Under the pieces are notes generated by a model. The model was not told where the DNA came from and did no database searches. It saw nothing but the letters and a program-made list of their open reading frames with translations. DNA of 64,000 nucleotides from Flavobacteriales bacterium. Its GTDB lineage: Bacteria > Bacteroidota > Bacteroidia > Palsa-965. Positions within the stretch are counted from its first letter, which is position 1, and each line of letters starts with the position of its first letter. A program made the position numbers and the translations under genes. The stretch is taken from NCBI GenBank assembly GCA_040377305.1, contig JBEIPA010000016.1, forward strand, positions 1 to 64,000, written 5' to 3'. Shown one piece after another: positions 14,636-21,069 of the stretch.

Positions 14636-16213
14636 GTGAAGCCCCAAATCAAAACTGACTTTCTAATCATAGGTTCCGGAATTGCCGGATTGACGTATGC
14701 TTTGAAAGTTGCGAAGCATGGTTCTGTGATCCTGATCACAAAATCAAACGCAGAAGAATCGAACACGAAATATGCGCAGGGCGGAATTGCTGCCGTGATG
14801 TATTCGCCCGATTCATACGAGAAGCATGTTCAGGATACATTGATTTGCGGGGACGGATTGTGCGACGAAGAAGTAGTGCGTATGGTCATCACTGAATCAA
14901 CCGCGCGTGTTAATGAACTTGCAGAATGGGGCGCAAACTTCGACAAGACTCCAGACGGAGAATACGAGCTTGCAAAAGAAGGTGGGCATTCTGAACGCCG
15001 CATTCTTCATCACAAAGACATTACGGGTTACGAAATCGAACGTGCATTGCTTGCGCAAGTACACTCGCATCCGAACATTAAGATTTACGATCATCACTTT
15101 GCGGTTGATATTATTACGCAACACCATCTTGGCGAAGAAGTGAACAGCAGAACACCAGGAATAAAATGTTTCGGTGCATATGTCCTGAATACAAAGACTG
15201 CTGAAGTTGACACCGTGTTGGCGAAAATTACATTGATGGCAACAGGCGGCGCAGGACATGTGTATGCGACTACAACGAATCCAACCATTGCAACCGGTGA
15301 TGGAATTGCCATGGTGTATCGTGCGAAAGGACGCGTTGAGAATATGGAGTTCATGCAGTTTCATCCGACTTCGCTATACAATCCGGGTGAGCATCCTTCT
15401 TTTTTGATTACAGAAGCGATGCGTGGTCATGGAGGAATTCTCCGCACACAAGACGGAAAAGAATTCATGCACAAATACGATACACGTAAATCATTAGCGC
15501 CTCGTGATATTGTTGCACGTGCTATTGATAACGAGATGAAAATTCGCGGAGAAGATTTCGTGTATCTCGATTGCACCCATCTTGATGCGAAAGATTTGCG
15601 TGAACATTTCCCGAACATTTTCGACAAGTGCCTAACAATTGATATCGATATCACGAAGCAAATGATTCCCGTTGTTCCTGCGGCTCACTATTTATGCGGA
15701 GGAATCAAAGTCGACAAAGAAGGACGCAGTAGCATTTCGAATCTGTATGCCATCGGAGAATGTTCTTCTACCGGATTGCATGGTGCAAATCGTTTAGCGT
15801 CGAATTCATTATTGGAAGCTGTGGTGTATGCGCATACTTCGAGTTTGTCTTCTATCTCTGCTCTTTCGAAATCTACATTTCAGGATGGAGTTCCCAACTG
15901 GAATGCTGAAGGGACAGATGCTCCCGAGGAGATGATTCTTATTGTGCAAAGCTTGCGTGAGGTTCAGCAGATCATGACAAATTACGTGGGCATTGTCCGT
16001 TCCGATTTACGTTTGAAACGTGCAATGGATCGATTGGAAATATTGTGGATAGAGAATGAGGCGTTGTATCGGAAGATCACAATTTCTCAGACCGTGTGTG
16101 AATTGAGAAATCTCATTAACGTGGCGTATATCATTATTAAATACGCGATGGAGCGGAAAGAAAGTGTGGGATTGCATTATACGGTTGATTATCCGGCTGT
16201 CAAAGGATCGTAA
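14636..16213 (+). CDS. nadB: L-aspartate oxidase
   Basis: GSGIAG, YAQGGIA, EGGHS, QFHPT, GLHGANRLASNSLLE. Confidence 0.95.
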   Translation: MKPQIKTDFLIIGSGIAGLTYALKVAKHGSVILITKSNAEESNTKYAQGGIAAVMYSPDSYEKHVQDTLICGDGLCDEEVVRMVITESTARVNELAEWGANFDKTPDGEYELAKEGGHSERRILHHKDITGYEIERALLAQVHSHPNIKIYDHHFAVDIITQHHLGEEVNSRTPGIKCFGAYVLNTKTAEVDTVLAKITLMATGGAGHVYATTTNPTIATGDGIAMVYRAKGRVENMEFMQFHPTSLYNPGEHPSFLITEAMRGHGGILRTQDGKEFMHKYDTRKSLAPRDIVARAIDNEMKIRGEDFVYLDCTHLDAKDLREHFPNIFDKCLTIDIDITKQMIPVVPAAHYLCGGIKVDKEGRSSISNLYAIGECSSTGLHGANRLASNSLLEAVVYAHTSSLSSISALSKSTFQDGVPNWNAEGTDAPEEMILIVQSLREVQQIMTNYVGIVRSDLRLKRAMDRLEILWIENEALYRKITISQTVCELRNLINVAYIIIKYAMERKESVGLHYTVDYPAVKGS

Positions 16214-16328: not shown

Positions 16329-17231
16329 ATGAAGCCACTTTTTTTCCTGTCTGCCATATTCACTTTTTCTAAAATGCTTAATGCACAACTGCCTGCGAAA
16401 AAAAGTGACGCCTGTGCACCACTTAGTTCGGAATCATTTGTAGTTCTCGATGTACTTTCCCAACAACGCCTACAGACTAAATTCAGCGCGTGCGAAATAA
16501 ATATTCATGATAGCACGTACATGCAACAGCCCGGTGTTCATGCGTCCTCCGTAGAAGAAGATATCCGGATTTCATACGATCAAGATGGTCGACCGCTTCG
16601 TGCAGAGTACACATTTGACGCCAACACCATTACCTCGACGTACAAAAGCCTTGTGATCTATGCTCACAATGGTTATTCAACGCTTACAACATACACGCCA
16701 CCTTCGATAGTCCCGATTACACAGTTGTATCTGTTTCAGCGGAGCAGTGATGGTTTGTACACGTCAGAAGCGTCGTGGTGGGGAGTTTCAAAAGCGGATA
16801 CCAATCAACAGGCATTCTACCGTATAACGAAATACCGTGACGTGAAAGGTGCAGATTCTCTCATTCTATCAGAAGTCGCGGGTACATTAACAGTTGGACG
16901 AATTGCAAGCATCAATAAACAGGATAACAAAACAACATATACATATCATTGGTTTAGCCCGTCAGAAGTCGCGCCAAAAGACACGACATGGACGATGTAT
17001 GAATTCCTAAGCAATCACGGTGTCCTTTCAAAGACTTTCGATGCCAGTACTACTAAGTCGGTGTCCAACACCGATGGATTGCTGACCATCTATGAACACA
17101 CCTGGTCCGGGATTGCAGACGAACAAAAATTTATCCATGCACAGATCACCCGATCTGCAAGTGGGCACCCTTCAGAAATGCGCTATGCTACTGAAACCGG
17201 TGTTAGAGTTTATAGATTTTTATGGAAATAA
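16329..17231 (+). CDS. Hypothetical secreted protein
   Basis: 300-aa ORF with a signal-like N-terminus and Tyr/Thr-rich beta strands. Confidence 0.6.
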   Translation: MKPLFFLSAIFTFSKMLNAQLPAKKSDACAPLSSESFVVLDVLSQQRLQTKFSACEINIHDSTYMQQPGVHASSVEEDIRISYDQDGRPLRAEYTFDANTITSTYKSLVIYAHNGYSTLTTYTPPSIVPITQLYLFQRSSDGLYTSEASWWGVSKADTNQQAFYRITKYRDVKGADSLILSEVAGTLTVGRIASINKQDNKTTYTYHWFSPSEVAPKDTTWTMYEFLSNHGVLSKTFDASTTKSVSNTDGLLTIYEHTWSGIADEQKFIHAQITRSASGHPSEMRYATETGVRVYRFLWK

Positions 17232-17290
17232 CTGAGGCGCAATCAAGCCGTTAACGTGTTTTGCGCCTCCTGATTTCGTAAATTAGCCAC

Positions 17291-17695
17291 ATGAACGGCT
17301 GGCTAAAATCCACACTTTCCTTTCTCCTTGGCGCGATAATTCTCGTGACCGGTAGCGGTGTGTCTTTGGCTAAAATGGTTTGTGCGAAATCGGGCTCAAC
17401 TTCAATCACATTGAACGTGCCTGACGATTGCTGCACGCATGAGCATGAGCATGCACCAGTAACTATCGAAGAAAAGTGTTGTGATATCAGCAACATGCAT
17501 CTGGATATCATGCAGTACATTGTTTCTGCAACACAGAATATTCAGAAGTCGGTTGTGTCTGTAGACGTTCCTGCGATCACATTCAGCTTCGATTCGTATT
17601 CTGAAATTGTTTCTGCGGTTGTGCGCGAACACTGTGACACCGAGCTGAAAGACTCTCCTCCTATCCGGATTCTGACCGGAACATTTATCATTTAA
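17291..17695 (+). CDS. HYC_CC_PP-like Cys/His-rich exported small protein
   Basis: Hydrophobic N-terminus, MVC, CC-THEHEH, second CC, SPP near the C-terminus; lies upstream of a TonB receptor. Confidence 0.75.
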   Translation: MNGWLKSTLSFLLGAIILVTGSGVSLAKMVCAKSGSTSITLNVPDDCCTHEHEHAPVTIEEKCCDISNMHLDIMQYIVSATQNIQKSVVSVDVPAITFSFDSYSEIVSAVVREHCDTELKDSPPIRILTGTFII

Positions 17696-17766
17696 GATTT
17701 ATTATTTCTGATTTCTTTTCGCGGAATAGTTCCGCGGAAACAAGTATTATCTGAATAATAAATCAA

Positions 17767-19995
17767 ATGAGAAAAGTAATAACCTTAATCACCTTGCTGT
17801 TATCCGGTCAGTTGATCGCACAGCACGAACACTTGCACGGTCATGTGAAAGGAACTGGCAGTGACAAAAACGGTGTTCCGGGAGCCGTTGTTCTTTGGGA
17901 GAACTTCCGCTTAGGAGCACAAACAACAGTTGATGGAAACTTCGAACTTCAATGGCCGGATTCTTTCCCGGCTGTGCTTGAAATTCGTGCGACGGGATAC
18001 AAAGCGAAGAAAATTAAGTTCATCGATAAATCATTAACAGACATCAAAGTTCAACTTGAAAATTTAGCGGACACACTTGGTGTTGTTGAGATCGTTGAGG
18101 TGCAGAAAGCAACTGAGTTTCTTTTCTTCCCTACGATCAACGGGGAAAAGATTACCGCGCGAAATCAGTTGAAAGCAGCATGTTGCAATCTCTCTGAGAG
18201 TTTTGAAACCAACCCGAGTGTGGATGCAGCAATGACAGACGCGGTTTCCGGTGCGAAGAAAATTCAGTTGCTTGGGCTCGACGGAGTGTATTCACAGATC
18301 ATGTTTGAGAATCTACCTCTTATACGTGGATTGTCCTCTTCATACGGATTGACTTACGTACCGGGAACATGGGTGAAGAGTATTCTCATCACGAAAGGAA
18401 CCGGCTCTGTTGTGAACGGATACGAATCAATTTCCGGTCAGCTGAATGTTGATTTGCTCAAGCCCGATGACGATCAGGATCCGTTGTTCTTCAATTTGTA
18501 TGCGAATCAATTCGGTCGCTACGAAATGAATGTGCATCTCAACAAGAAGATCAACGAGAACGTTGGAACGACATTGCTTGGTCATGGCAGCACAATGAAG
18601 CAACGCAACGACAACAATCACGACGGATTCCTTGATCAACCCACATATGATCAACTCAACGTGATGAATCGTTGGTATTGGCAGAGCAACGACAAAGCTG
18701 AAGGACAATTTGGCTTCCGTGCTGTTTACGATGATCGTCGTGGCGGACAATTCATGTTTGACAAAACGCGCGATTACGGAAACACATCGTTTTATGGAAT
18801 CGGAATCCGGAACGTACAGGCGGAAGTGTTCAACAAAACCGGATTTGTATTTCAGAAGCCGGGTCGTAGCATTGGTACCATGTTCTCTGCGCGTTACCAC
18901 AAACAAGATATGTTCTTCGGATTACGCACGTACGAAGGCGAACAAAAGAGCGTGTATGTGAATTTGATCTGGCAGGATATTATCCATACAACCGATCACA
19001 TCATCAAGGCTGGAACGAGTCTGATTTATGACGATTATCTGCAGTCGTACAATGATTCGAATTACGACCGAACAGAAATTGTTCCCGGAGTTTTCGTCGA
19101 GTACAGCGGACATTTTGCAGAGAAGTTCTCCATGGTTGCAGGTGTGCGTGGCGACTATCACAATCTCGCAGGATTCCAGCTGACGCCGCGTTTGCATTTA
19201 AAGTACGACCCGAAAGAGAACACAGCGATCCGCATCTCCGGTGGAAAAGGTTTCCGATACGCGAACGTGTTTACGGAAAGCAGCATGTTGTTTGCGAATT
19301 CACGTGAGGTTGTTATCAGTCCCGATCTTGATGCAGAAATTGCCTGGAACTACGGCGGAAGTGTTCAACAGAAGTTCACGTTATTCAAACGCGAAGCAAT
19401 TTTTGTTGTGGATTTCTTCCGCACCGATTTCGTGAACCAGGTGTTGTATGATTTTGATACGTGGGGCAAATTGAAAATCTACAACCTGAGAGGACGTTCT
19501 TATGCGAACAGTTTTCAGACCGATATTTCTGTTGAGCCCATCGAGCGTTTCTTTGTTCGTGCGGCATACAAGTTTTACGATGTGAAAGCTTTGTATAATG
19601 GCCAGATGAAACAGAAACCATTGAGTGCACAACATCGTGCGTTTGTGAATCTCGCGTATGCACTTCCGTATGACAAATGGATGTTCGATTTCACGGCGAA
19701 GTGGATCGGCCCCACGCGCATGCCATCACACAAAGTGGACTCACATCACATTGGTGGGCCAGATGTTATTGTGGGTGACACATACACGAAAGGCTATTTC
19801 ATCTTCAATACGCATGTCGTGAAAAAATTCCGTCGTTGGGAAGTGTATGCAGGATGTGAGAATATCGGCAATTTCATGCAAAAGAACCCGATTCTCGGTG
19901 GTGAGAACCCCTTTGGCTCAGATTTTGATGCATCACTCGTATATGCACCGACTGACGGCAGAACAATTTATGCCGGAGTGAGAATAAAGATTTAA
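17767..19995 (+). CDS. TonB-dependent receptor, probably for a metal
   Basis: N-terminal carboxypeptidase-regulatory-like domain; plug with AACCNLSESFETNP; barrel ending GRTIYAGVRIKI. Confidence 0.9.
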   Translation: MRKVITLITLLLSGQLIAQHEHLHGHVKGTGSDKNGVPGAVVLWENFRLGAQTTVDGNFELQWPDSFPAVLEIRATGYKAKKIKFIDKSLTDIKVQLENLADTLGVVEIVEVQKATEFLFFPTINGEKITARNQLKAACCNLSESFETNPSVDAAMTDAVSGAKKIQLLGLDGVYSQIMFENLPLIRGLSSSYGLTYVPGTWVKSILITKGTGSVVNGYESISGQLNVDLLKPDDDQDPLFFNLYANQFGRYEMNVHLNKKINENVGTTLLGHGSTMKQRNDNNHDGFLDQPTYDQLNVMNRWYWQSNDKAEGQFGFRAVYDDRRGGQFMFDKTRDYGNTSFYGIGIRNVQAEVFNKTGFVFQKPGRSIGTMFSARYHKQDMFFGLRTYEGEQKSVYVNLIWQDIIHTTDHIIKAGTSLIYDDYLQSYNDSNYDRTEIVPGVFVEYSGHFAEKFSMVAGVRGDYHNLAGFQLTPRLHLKYDPKENTAIRISGGKGFRYANVFTESSMLFANSREVVISPDLDAEIAWNYGGSVQQKFTLFKREAIFVVDFFRTDFVNQVLYDFDTWGKLKIYNLRGRSYANSFQTDISVEPIERFFVRAAYKFYDVKALYNGQMKQKPLSAQHRAFVNLAYALPYDKWMFDFTAKWIGPTRMPSHKVDSHHIGGPDVIVGDTYTKGYFIFNTHVVKKFRRWEVYAGCENIGNFMQKNPILGGENPFGSDFDASLVYAPTDGRTIYAGVRIKI

Positions 19996-20020
19996 CTTCA
20001 AAATATAATCCAGACATAGA

Positions 20021-20392
20021 ATGAAAAATATAGCTTCCATAGTGGTTGTAATACTTGCGATTGTGTTCGCTCCCGTTAACGTTAGCGCTCAGAAATCAAA
20101 ACTCGATACAGTCAACATCAAGACTTCGGCCGAGTGCGACATGTGCAAAACCAAGCTTGAAAAAGAAATTGGCGTGATGAAAGGCGTGAAGTCTGTAAAT
20201 CTCGATTTGACTACACAAGTTGTTACGGTGGTTTACAACGGAAGCAAAACCGATGTAACAAAAATCAAACAGGCTATCGCGAACATTGGTTACGATGCTG
20301 ATGAAGTGAAGGCGAACAACCGGGCCCAGAAGAAGCTGCCTGCGTGTTGCAAGCCGGGCGGGATGCCAGGTGCGGATTCGGTACCTAAATAA
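20021..20392 (+). CDS. Periplasmic heavy-metal-associated (HMA) domain protein
   Basis: Signal peptide, CDMC motif, C-terminal LPACC. Confidence 0.88.
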   Translation: MKNIASIVVVILAIVFAPVNVSAQKSKLDTVNIKTSAECDMCKTKLEKEIGVMKGVKSVNLDLTTQVVTVVYNGSKTDVTKIKQAIANIGYDADEVKANNRAQKKLPACCKPGGMPGADSVPK

Positions 20393-20452: not shown

Positions 20453-20488
20453 AACCCCGGAAGCATAAAACTTTCGGGGTTTTTGTTT
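20453..20488 (+). terminator. Intrinsic terminator
   Basis: AACCCCGGAAG / CTTTCGGGGTT stem with a T tail. Confidence 0.75.
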
Positions 20489-20556: not shown

Positions 20557-21069
20557 ATGCCTGTAATCTTAGAAGTTCAAGGAAAGAAGCCGCAATTCGG
20601 CAACGATTGTTTTATCGCGGAGAACGCAACCATTGTTGGTGATGTGAAATGTGGAGACCAGTGCAGCTTCTGGTTTAATGTGGTTGTTCGCGGTGATGTG
20701 AACAGCATTGAAATCGGAAACAAGGTGAATATTCAGGATCTGGCCATGATCCACTGCACGTATCAGAAGGCAGCGACAAAGATCGGCAACAACGTTTCTA
20801 TCGGTCACCGTGCGATCGTACACGGATGTACTTTGCACGATGATGTGCTCGTTGGAATGGGCGCAATTGTGATGGATCACGCAGAAGTCGGGAGCAACAC
20901 GATCATTGCTGCAGGCGCAGTTGTAACGGAAGGAATGAAAGTAGAACCGAACAGTATTTATGCGGGTGTTCCAGCGAAGAAAATAAAAGCTATTTCACCG
21001 GAACTTTCGAAGGGCGAGATTGAAAGGATTGCGAATAATTATGTGATGTATTCGTCTTGGTTTAAGTGA
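20557..21069 (+). CDS. Gamma carbonic anhydrase family protein
   Basis: Hexapeptide repeats, VRGDVN, NIQD, IGHRAIVHGC. Confidence 0.92.
   Translation: MPVILEVQGKKPQFGNDCFIAENATIVGDVKCGDQCSFWFNVVVRGDVNSIEIGNKVNIQDLAMIHCTYQKAATKIGNNVSIGHRAIVHGCTLHDDVLVGMGAIVMDHAEVGSNTIIAAGAVVTEGMKVEPNSIYAGVPAKKIKAISPELSKGEIERIANNYVMYSSWFK

What the first reader, a model, noticed from the sequence alone, without database searches (positions are those of the whole stretch)
17291..20392. Candidate metal-responsive translational switch: PP-ending Cys/His upstream ORF and a hairpin covering the TonB receptor's initiation region
Seen: the 71-nt gap between the small ORF stop (17695) and the receptor ATG (17767) folds almost entirely into one hairpin. 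GATTTATTATT (17696-17706) pairs with AATAATAAATC (17754-17764) around an inner stem TTTTCGCGGAA/TTCCGCGGAAA, covering the A-rich initiation region up to 2 nt before the ATG. The small ORF has an export-like N-terminus, two CC pairs, HEHEH, and SPP ending 10 codons before the stop. The receptor plug (AACC) and the HMA protein (CDMC, ACC) also carry Cys ligands. Known: Bordetella CruR (DUF2946; CxxC plus a RAPP arrest motif) controls a downstream copper TonB receptor after transcription. Inference: this is an analogous Bacteroidota switch in which ribosome progress through the upstream ORF decides whether the hairpin opens.
Basis: partly seen in the sequence, partly recalled or inferred. Interest (0 to 1): 0.7.

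Follow-up and report, generated by a model that had tools for sequence, protein, structure and literature searches.

The report
Stop-codon-gated metal-sensing leader switch
A small cysteine-rich leader gene ends inside an RNA hairpin predicted to hide the start of a metal-transporter gene, a layout shared by many Bacteroidota; a ribosome reaching the leader's stop codon would open it, likely letting periplasmic copper switch the transporter on (untested).

Summary
Observation confirmed: the hairpin (z -4.6) also traps the receptor AUG. The leader is a divergent relative of HYC_CC_PP/DUF8199 (unknown function, about 13,000 clusters), not DUF2946. Across 159 homologous loci the hairpin's position is conserved, not its sequence, ahead of TonB receptors, HMA chaperones and CusA pumps. 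Computed opening cost falls by 3 kcal/mol or more only when the ribosome nears the leader's stop (106/159; control 12/150); a ribosome on the PP leaves it shut (3/143 drop). The last Cys-Cys lies 71±2 residues from the stop across an 11%-identical linker, the distance published for periplasmic folding at SecY. The F-x-I ending is conserved as peptide, UGA is enriched, and many leaders look leaderless. Best model: a CutF-like switch whose working point is termination, not the PP; stalling, metal and direction are untested. This scan noted a like layout before cusA on other DNA (e1-7238686). New variant of a known kind.

The parts
17279..17286 (+). Predicted sigma-A -7 box TAAATTAG (one mismatch to TAnnTTTG), 4 nt before the ATG: leader mRNA likely leaderless
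   Evidence: strict box at 4-5 nt in 52 of 177 relatives vs 31 of 723 control starts; box position from PMC9723704 and PMC6847099 passages
17291..17695 (+). Leader ORF, 134 aa, divergent relative of HYC_CC_PP/DUF8199: N-terminal hydrophobic helix, Cys cluster, low-confidence linker, PP..F-I-I-stop
17381..17482 (+). Cys cluster C31, C47-C48, HEHEH, C63-C64 (C31 and C64 invariant; C48 and C63 in at least 90% of 132 aligned)
17483..17692 (+). 70-residue spacer from the last Cys-Cys to the stop; family 71±2 residues at about 11% linker identity
17657..17662 (+). Pro-Pro codons, 10 codons before the stop (family mode 15-16; absent in 18 of 177)
17684..17695 (+). Last codons F-I-I and TAA: conserved peptide ending, and 5' extension of the hairpin that pairs with the receptor AUG
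17696..17764 (+). Intergenic hairpin (outer arms 17696-17706/17754-17764; inner stem 17716-17726/17730-17740) predicted to cover the A-rich initiation region
17767..19995 (+). TonB-dependent receptor with N-terminal extension, His-rich mature N-terminus and invariant plug Cys-Cys; no close solved relative, substrate unknown
20021..20392 (+). Exported HMA (CopZ/MerP-like) metal chaperone with CxxC and C-terminal CC
20453..20481 (+). Intrinsic-terminator-like hairpin closing the three-gene unit

Best explanation
The leader gene ends inside a hairpin predicted to hide the receptor's start codon, and a ribosome that likely dwells at the leader's stop codon, for as long as a metal (likely copper) holds the exported Cys cluster, would keep that hairpin open and switch receptor translation on. 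Steps: (1) shown in sequence: leader, hairpin, receptor, chaperone, terminator-like end; (2) computed: the hairpin is anchored on the stop and opens only when the ribosome is on the last two or three codons; (3) inferred: the leader is exported co-translationally, and at the stop its last Cys-Cys is about 71 residues from the peptidyl transferase centre, just out of SecY in the periplasm; (4) inferred: the last 17 residues (PP..hydrophobic..F-[LR]-I-stop) lie in the exit tunnel and slow release; (5) inferred: metal binding lengthens the dwell (CutF logic), so excess metal turns on receptor/HMA and CusA operons.
For: Hairpin z<-2 in 113 of 159 gaps vs 52 of 150 control gaps; a helix joining the first 12 nt after the stop to the start region in 87 of 159 vs 187 of 722 control and 169 of 795 shuffled. 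Opening cost drops by >=3 kcal/mol from codon -10 to the stop in 106 of 159 vs 12 of 150 controls; footprint edge 11, 13 or 16 nt gives 86, 93, 100 of 143 for PP to stop. Arms are partner-specific: own pair -9.6 vs -5.4 kcal/mol for swapped pairs, own partner in the top tenth in 87 of 159 vs 13 of 100 controls. Last CC to stop 71.0±1.9 (132 of 132 aligned) against 32.9±5.5 for the Cys cluster itself; linker identity 11%; 163 of 177 at 67-74 without alignment; 146 of 150 database hits at 68-75. In 17 same-genus leaders CC-to-stop is 70-73 while CC-to-PP is 52-63 in 11 and PP is absent in 6. Sandhu et al. (10.1101/2021.02.06.430026, abstract): periplasmic folding force arises about 70 residues from the PTC. 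F(-3) 120/177, L/R(-2) 134/177 over many synonymous codons, I(-1) 123/177, kept whether or not the codon pairs. TGA ends 71 of 127 leaders vs 13 of 127 downstream genes in the same loci. Arrest with a stop in the A site is shown for other secreted Bacteroidota leaders (10.1101/2023.09.02.556018 passages). Downstream genes are HMA, receptor, CusA-type RND, MbnP, HMBD, DUF326, P-type ATPase.
Against: No experiment on this family; all RNA results are minimum-free-energy folds, and related genomes are not independent. This leader ends in TAA, not TGA. CC-to-PP (SD 2.3) is nearly as tight as CC-to-stop (SD 2.0) family-wide; long-tail members (17 of 118) keep CC-to-PP constant rather than CC-to-stop, and the middle Cys lies 69±4 from the PP. 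53 of 159 loci show no >=3 kcal/mol drop; the MbnP/T9SS class has an open start (4 of 17). Alignment-based covariation is weak: no RNAalifold consensus in three of four alignments, 1 compensatory pair of 28 in the fourth, none in window vs closest relative. Metal-induced folding usually pulls and releases an arrest, the opposite of step 5. The ending lacks the terminal Pro of TnaC (recalled) and of the NSP/NAP-stop peptides. The metal is inferred from gene context only; the receptor is no closer to OprC than to other TonB receptors.
Confidence: 0.45

Rival explanations
1. PP gate: the ribosome pauses on the PP upstream of the hairpin (OFF); metal-driven folding of the exported Cys cluster pulls it free, it runs to the stop and opens the hairpin (ON).
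For: PP in the last 30 residues of 159 of 177 leaders, P at -17 in 116; middle Cys to PP 68.8±4.3 and last CC to PP 56.3±2.3; hairpin stays shut with a ribosome on the PP; ordinary pull-and-release logic gives ON in metal, which suits CusA.
Against: PP absent in 18 of 177, including 6 of 17 same-genus leaders with an intact hairpin; R-x-PP in only 5; at the PP the invariant last CC is only about 56 residues out, likely still in SecY; it does not explain the F-x-I-stop ending or the TGA excess.
Confidence: 0.2
2. Plain translational coupling without sensing: terminating ribosomes open the hairpin, and the leader product is an ordinary periplasmic metal-binding partner made in step with the transporter.
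For: All RNA results fit coupling alone; secondary structure tunes initiation in Bacteroidota (PMC6847099 passages).
Against: A fixed 71-residue spacer of 11% identity, a low-confidence model beyond a small Cys sheet (pLDDT 59.5), and the same leader ahead of unrelated gene classes are hard to explain for a folded partner protein.
Confidence: 0.17
3. The control is on RNA fate: ribosome position on the leader gates Rho-dependent termination (as for CruR) or nuclease processing at the hairpin, rather than initiation.
For: Leader 3' halves are C-rich and G-poor (C 5906, G 3773 in the last 153 nt of 159 loci); the MbnP/T9SS class has C/G 1.7 in the gap and an open start; CruR works this way (PMC9426467).
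Against: Third-codon C/G is the same as in downstream genes (1.34 vs 1.37), so the skew follows amino-acid content; terminator-like sites are not clearly enriched (20 of 159 vs 66 of 723); the 3' arm lands on -13 to +3 of the start.
Confidence: 0.1
4. The Cys cluster reports periplasmic thiol-disulfide state or export capacity rather than a metal, using the same stop-anchored gate.
For: Five or more Cys in 171 of 177 leaders; export-monitoring leaders that arrest at a stop exist in Bacteroidota.
Against: Downstream genes are almost all metal-handling; no sec or dsb gene was among the 18 representatives scanned.
Confidence: 0.08

Closest known systems
CutF of Rhodobacter capsulatus (cutFOG; DUF2946; PMC9973294, bioRxiv 10.1101/2025.02.05.636593)
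   Same: Small exported Cys leader at the head of a copper operon, C-terminal prolines, stem-loop over the next gene's initiation region, opening ascribed to a stalled ribosome sensing periplasmic Cu.
   Different: No DUF2946 match; C + CC + CC instead of CxxxC; PP typically 15-16 codons before the stop and out of reach of the hairpin; conserved F-[LR]-I-stop ending; no Shine-Dalgarno to shield; likely leaderless; CutF's mechanism is tested, this one is not.
CruR (Bp2923) of Bordetella pertussis (PMC9426467; arrest mapped in PMC12992588)
   Same: Leader upstream of a TonB-dependent receptor, conserved spacing between Cys motif and C-terminal element.
   Different: CruR has CxxC 45 residues from RAPP, arrests on the PP, acts through Rho and is switched off by Cu; here the spacing is 71 residues to the stop, there is no RAPP, and the hairpin points to control of initiation.
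[quoted passage not shown]
   Same: Bacteroidota leaders with a conserved C-terminal motif that ends at the stop; arrest shown with the stop in the A site.
   Different: They end in Pro, precede sec genes and were not described with a Cys cluster; arrest is not shown for the present family.
HYC_CC_PP (NCBIfam NF047658) / DUF8199 (PF26622)
   Same: Same motifs and context; 127 of 132 aligned relatives match NF047658; language-model neighbours at 0.96 carry DUF8199.
   Different: This protein scores 21.6 bits, under the 28-bit cut-off, and has KMVC for HYC; the family has no described function in the searches run.

Membership tests
DUF2946 (PF11162; CruR, CutF) | Match to the Pfam profile | tested here: not met
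   0 of 1, 0 of 132 relatives at E<=0.01, none in the genome
DUF2946 (PF11162; CruR, CutF) | CxxC/CxxxC plus C-terminal RAPP about 45 residues apart | tested here: not met
   C31, C47C48, C63C64 and DSPP; R at -2 of PP in 5 of 159 leaders with PP
CutF-like proteins (rule set of PMC9973294) | Under 150 aa, PP within the last 15 residues, next gene on the same strand within 1000 nt | tested here: met
   134 aa, 10 residues after PP, 71-nt gap; only 29 of 177 relatives have 13 or fewer residues after the last PP
CutF-like proteins (rule set of PMC9973294) | Sec signal peptide | tested here: inconclusive
   N-terminal hydrophobic helix 3-21 predicted with high pLDDT; no signal-peptide predictor available; cleavage not established
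CutF-like mechanism | Stem-loop shielding the downstream initiation region, within reach of the leader's ribosome | tested here: met
   Computed only: (reach is from the stop, not the PP)
CutF-like mechanism | Cu-dependent ribosome stalling, acting only in cis | not testable with these tools
   needs toeprinting and reporters
CruR mechanism | Rho-dependent termination between leader and receptor | tested here: inconclusive
   C>G skew explained by amino-acid content; no clear terminator excess
HYC_CC_PP NF047658 / DUF8199 | Score at or above the curated cut-off (28 bits) | tested here: not met
   21.6 bits, E 2.4e-4; the syntenic leader of G027 scores 39.5
HYC_CC_PP NF047658 / DUF8199 | Motif order: hydrophobic helix, (H)xC, CC or CxC, CC, PP, F-x-I | tested here: met
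   consensus of alignment A2; atlas neighbours DUF8199 at 0.96
Termination-arrest leaders (TnaC, NSP/NAP-stop) | Peptidyl-tRNA accumulates with the stop codon in the A site | not testable with these tools
   only indirect signs:
Termination-arrest leaders (TnaC, NSP/NAP-stop) | Proline as last residue | tested here: not met
   last residue Ile here and in 123 of 177
OprC/CrtA copper receptors | Close sequence or fold relationship to OprC | tested here: not met
   no PDB hit for the single sequence; profile hits are Cir, SusC and PirA; OprC ranks 36th at 12% identity among many TonB receptors
Known structured RNA families (Rfam 15) | Match at gathering score | tested here: not met
   0 matches in 17 loci

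The most novel reading that the evidence does not exclude
HYC_CC_PP/DUF8199, one of the largest unexplained Bacteroidota families, is the phylum's main copper sensor: a leaderless, Sec-threaded nascent chain that reads periplasmic metal through a 71-residue ruler and controls translation termination itself, parking the ribosome on its stop codon to unmask the next gene. That would be metal sensing across the membrane by termination arrest, which none of the papers read here describes.
Probability: 0.4. Interest if true: 0.78.

Novelty: new variant of a known kind. Interest (0 to 1): 0.6.

Why it matters
It assigns a testable mechanism to a family found in 157 of 251 Bacteroidia genomes searched and about 13,000 protein clusters. 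A genome survey of the flavobacterium Bizionia argentinensis found no regulator with the CueR or CopY copper site and no clear CusS (PMC11213822 passages), so how this phylum senses copper is open; a leader heading CusA, HMA, receptor and storage genes would fill that gap. The predictions are sharp: stall at the stop, not the PP, and a spacer that must stay near 71 residues. The general kind (CutF/CruR) is known, which caps the surprise.

Tried and rejected
Sequence-alignment covariation: MAFFT plus RNAalifold gave no consensus for three sets because the gaps are barely alignable and slip in register; replaced by the arm-swap test. A named structure on five related loci gave 70.5% paired cells and 9 pairs with changes on both sides (3 of 500 shuffles as high on pairing, 83 of 500 on pair count): modest. 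Idea that F-x-I is kept only to pair with AUG-AAA: rejected, since F and I are as conserved when their codons do not pair (63/96 vs 45/63; 62/79 vs 50/80). Intrinsic terminator in the gap: none found in the window, 20 of 159 vs 66 of 723. Rfam: none. Test of leaderless transcription with a mapped B. thetaiotaomicron start site (BT_1093; locus tags recalled, row from PMC7366714 supplement): the motif proved to be the end of a mobile element, with no leader ORF behind it, so it tests nothing. F. psychrophilum supplements gave no identifiable locus. Sequencing runs: no RNA holder listed. Leader model too poor for a fold search; receptor plug poorly modelled, so the side its Cys-Cys faces is unknown. 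A partition-function ribosome walk timed out and was redone with minimum energies. No complex prediction was run.
Full report
1. Observation. The gap folds at -23.8 kcal/mol, z -4.62, with 0 of 200 shuffles as stable. With flanks, the predicted helix runs on into the leader: 17688-17693 (last two codons and the first base of TAA) pair with 17765-17770, so the receptor AUG is itself paired. The unit closes with a terminator-like hairpin at 20453-20481. The receptor carries TonB barrel, plug and N-terminal extension domains, and the third gene an HMA domain. A home-made gene model of this genome shows A-rich starts at -13 to -10 and no Shine-Dalgarno signal, as described for the phylum (PMC6847099 passages).

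2. What the leader is. It matches NCBIfam HYC_CC_PP at 21.6 bits, below the 28-bit cut-off, has no match in the Pfam copy held, and its language-model neighbours carry DUF8199 at 0.96. No DUF2946 match was found for it, for 132 relatives or in the genome. I call it a divergent relative of HYC_CC_PP/DUF8199. The family is in 157 of 251 Bacteroidia genomes searched, and a profile finds 13,347 clusters at E<=0.001. The receptor has a match in 33 of 41 relatives. A leader precedes it, directly or with the HMA gene between, in 28 of the 30 loci fetched (2 are cut by contig ends); it was not found in 4 more distant receptor loci (L078, L192-L194). The tallies include unpublished genomes G012 and G114; G012 was also in my seed profile, but no count from then on uses either.

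3. Data set. Of 194 loci, 189 leader hits gave 177 distinct entries. Six were dropped (five with an uncertain downstream start, one dropped as a duplicate), 27 starts were set by hand, and 159 of the 171 have gaps of 40-140 nt. I fetched 142 of the 223 family matches (the best-scoring ones, without G114). Controls are co-directional gene pairs of this one genome from my own gene caller, so some starts are wrong and base composition differs; shuffles and swaps address composition. Related genomes are not independent.

4. The hairpin is conserved in position, not sequence. z<-2 in 113 of 159 gaps vs 52 of 150 controls; a helix joining the first 12 nt after the stop to the start region in 87 of 159 vs 187 of 722 controls and 169 of 795 shuffles. 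The 5' arm peaks from about -15 to +12 around the stop and the 3' arm from -13 to +3 of the AUG. Own arms pair at -9.6 kcal/mol vs -5.4 for swapped arms, with the own partner in the top tenth in 87 of 159 (control 13 of 100). Alignment-based covariation is weak: no consensus; 1 of 28 pairs compensatory; 9 of 30 pairs changed on both sides for a named structure; none between the window and its closest relative. No Rfam match in 17 loci.

5. The switch point is the stop. Masking the mRNA under a walking ribosome, the cost of freeing -15 to +10 of the receptor start stays high from codon -20 to -6 and collapses over the last two or three codons: family median 7.4 at -10 and 2.2 at the stop; a drop of 3 or more in 106 of 159 vs 12 of 150 controls; this window 8.5 at the PP and 2.9 at the stop. 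Using each leader's real PP, the ribosome there lowers the cost by 3 or more in 3 of 143 (this window among them), whereas moving on to the stop does so in 86-100 of 143 depending on the footprint assumed. A stall on the PP therefore would not open the hairpin. By class, the drop is seen in 23 of 28 receptor-first loci and 23 of 27 CusA loci but 4 of 17 MbnP/T9SS loci.

6. The peptide looks like a ruler plus a tunnel segment. C31 and C64 are invariant, and C48, C63, P123 and P124 nearly so. The model is a confident N-terminal helix, a small low-confidence sheet and an unstructured remainder (pLDDT 59.5). Last CC to stop is 71.0±1.9 residues at 11% linker identity, while the Cys cluster varies by ±5.5; 146 of 150 database hits fall at 68-75 (these are the best-scoring hits, hence biased towards the profile's length). 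Sandhu et al. place periplasmic folding force at about 70 residues from the PTC (abstract only); CruR's spacing is 45. In 17 same-genus leaders CC-to-stop is 70-73 while CC-to-PP is 52-63 or PP is absent. Against: family-wide CC-to-PP is almost as tight (SD 2.3), long-tail members keep CC-to-PP fixed, and the middle Cys is 69±4 from the PP. The ending is F(120)-L/R(134)-I(123) of 177 with hydrophobic residues at -7, -8 and -10; PP sits 15-16 residues from the end in 90, is absent in 18, and has Arg at -2 in 5. F and I are kept whether or not their codons pair. TGA ends 71 of 127 leaders but 13 of 127 neighbouring genes, and 38 of 80 leaders whose stop does not pair; this leader uses TAA. A strict TAnnTTTG box lies 4-5 nt before the start in 52 of 177 (3-9 nt: 80) vs 31 (51) of 723 control starts. 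The box normally ends 4-5 nt before the transcription start, and leaderless mRNAs are 3.7-5.5% in the phylum, so many leaders are likely leaderless; my attempt to test this on mapped starts failed.

7. Which signal and direction. Next genes cluster as receptor/HMA (95 of 171), CusA-type RND (28), MbnP/T9SS (19), HMBD-type small proteins (14) and small groups including DUF326, a P-type ATPase, a di-haem peroxidase and AraC. This points to copper or a similar thiophilic metal. Because the same gate precedes efflux pumps, metal-ON is the likelier sign; for this receptor the substrate and direction are unknown.

8. Mechanism. Shown: anatomy and conservation. Computed: stop-anchored gate. Inferred: co-translational export, slowed termination, metal-dependent dwell. 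I put about 0.8 on a gate opened by the leader's ribosome, 0.45 on control by dwell at the stop, 0.2 on a PP pause released by metal, 0.17 on coupling without sensing, 0.1 on Rho or processing, and 0.08 on a redox or export signal.

9. Known systems. CutF is closest: Cu-induced stalling melts a stem-loop over the cutO ribosome-binding site. Its authors listed 5,334 CutF-like proteins, 19% from Bacteroidota, often before TonB-like genes; this protein meets their length, PP and gap filters, but only 29 of 177 relatives meet the PP filter. Their File S1 is not held and Fig. S6 is a picture, so whether DUF8199 members are in the list is unresolved and bears on novelty. CruR works through Rho and RAPP. 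Stop-codon arrest is shown for other Bacteroidota leaders. Searches for this family in print: HYC_CC_PP 0 papers; copper/Bacteroid/TonB/heavy-metal-associated/operon 0; BT1092-1094 0; searches listed nothing on it by title or abstract start. DUF8199 was not searched as a term, and most subscription papers are outside the library. Earlier scan notes, unchecked, describe a like layout ahead of cusA (e1-7238686) and several RxPP leaders; they were seen as short notes, after or apart from my tests.

10. What I saw of each paper. PMC9426467: first of seven parts and passages. 10.1101/2025.02.05.636593: first of six parts and passages. 10.1101/2022.11.11.516240 and PMC9973294: passages, supplement list and one supplement search. 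PMC12914433, PMC12992588, 10.1101/2023.09.02.556018, PMC6847099, PMC11213822: passages. 10.1101/2021.02.06.430026: abstract and outline. PMC7366714 and PMC9723704: passages and supplement rows. TnaC and PepNL papers: search listing only; TnaC's terminal Pro is recalled.

11. Verdict. Real and conserved; a new variant of the CutF/CruR kind with a different family, ruler length and predicted arrest site. Interest 0.6.

Noticed in passing
G000:C16:32288-32740 (L031): A second family member in this genome, over the NCBIfam cut-off, heads an AraC-type regulator gene; its 93-nt gap also folds from the stop towards the start.
   Followed up: partly
L055, L059, L082, L091, L093 and 14 more: Leaders ahead of MbnP-like or T9SS-sorted proteins have C-rich gaps (C/G 1.7) with an open start region (median cost 2.4-2.8 kcal/mol): possibly the opposite, CruR-like logic for uptake genes.
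   Followed up: partly
window 17234-17269: Inverted repeat GAGGCGCAA/TTGCGCCTC between the upstream gene's stop and the leader's promoter box; terminator or operator; not seen in the upstream contexts of close relatives printed.
   Followed up: no
window 14636-16213 and 20557-21069: An L-aspartate-oxidase-like gene (name recalled, not scanned) lies upstream and a gamma-carbonic-anhydrase-like gene downstream of the unit in many same-genus loci; here a 300-aa ORF without family match (16329-17231) lies between.
   Followed up: no
L058, L080, L111, L114, L126 and others: A subgroup ends in [FY]-Y-[GA]-stop instead of F-[LR]-I-stop, mostly ahead of HMA then receptor.
   Followed up: no
L195-L274: The mapped primary start site upstream of B. 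thetaiotaomicron BT_1093 matches the end of a mobile element found with many different flanks, an outward-facing promoter.
   Followed up: partly
P0001: Top database hit continues 41 residues past the F-R-I motif, perhaps a lost or read-through stop.
   Followed up: no
L024: Gap carries a GC hairpin with a U-run inside the enclosing helix, and the receptor start is unclear.
   Followed up: no
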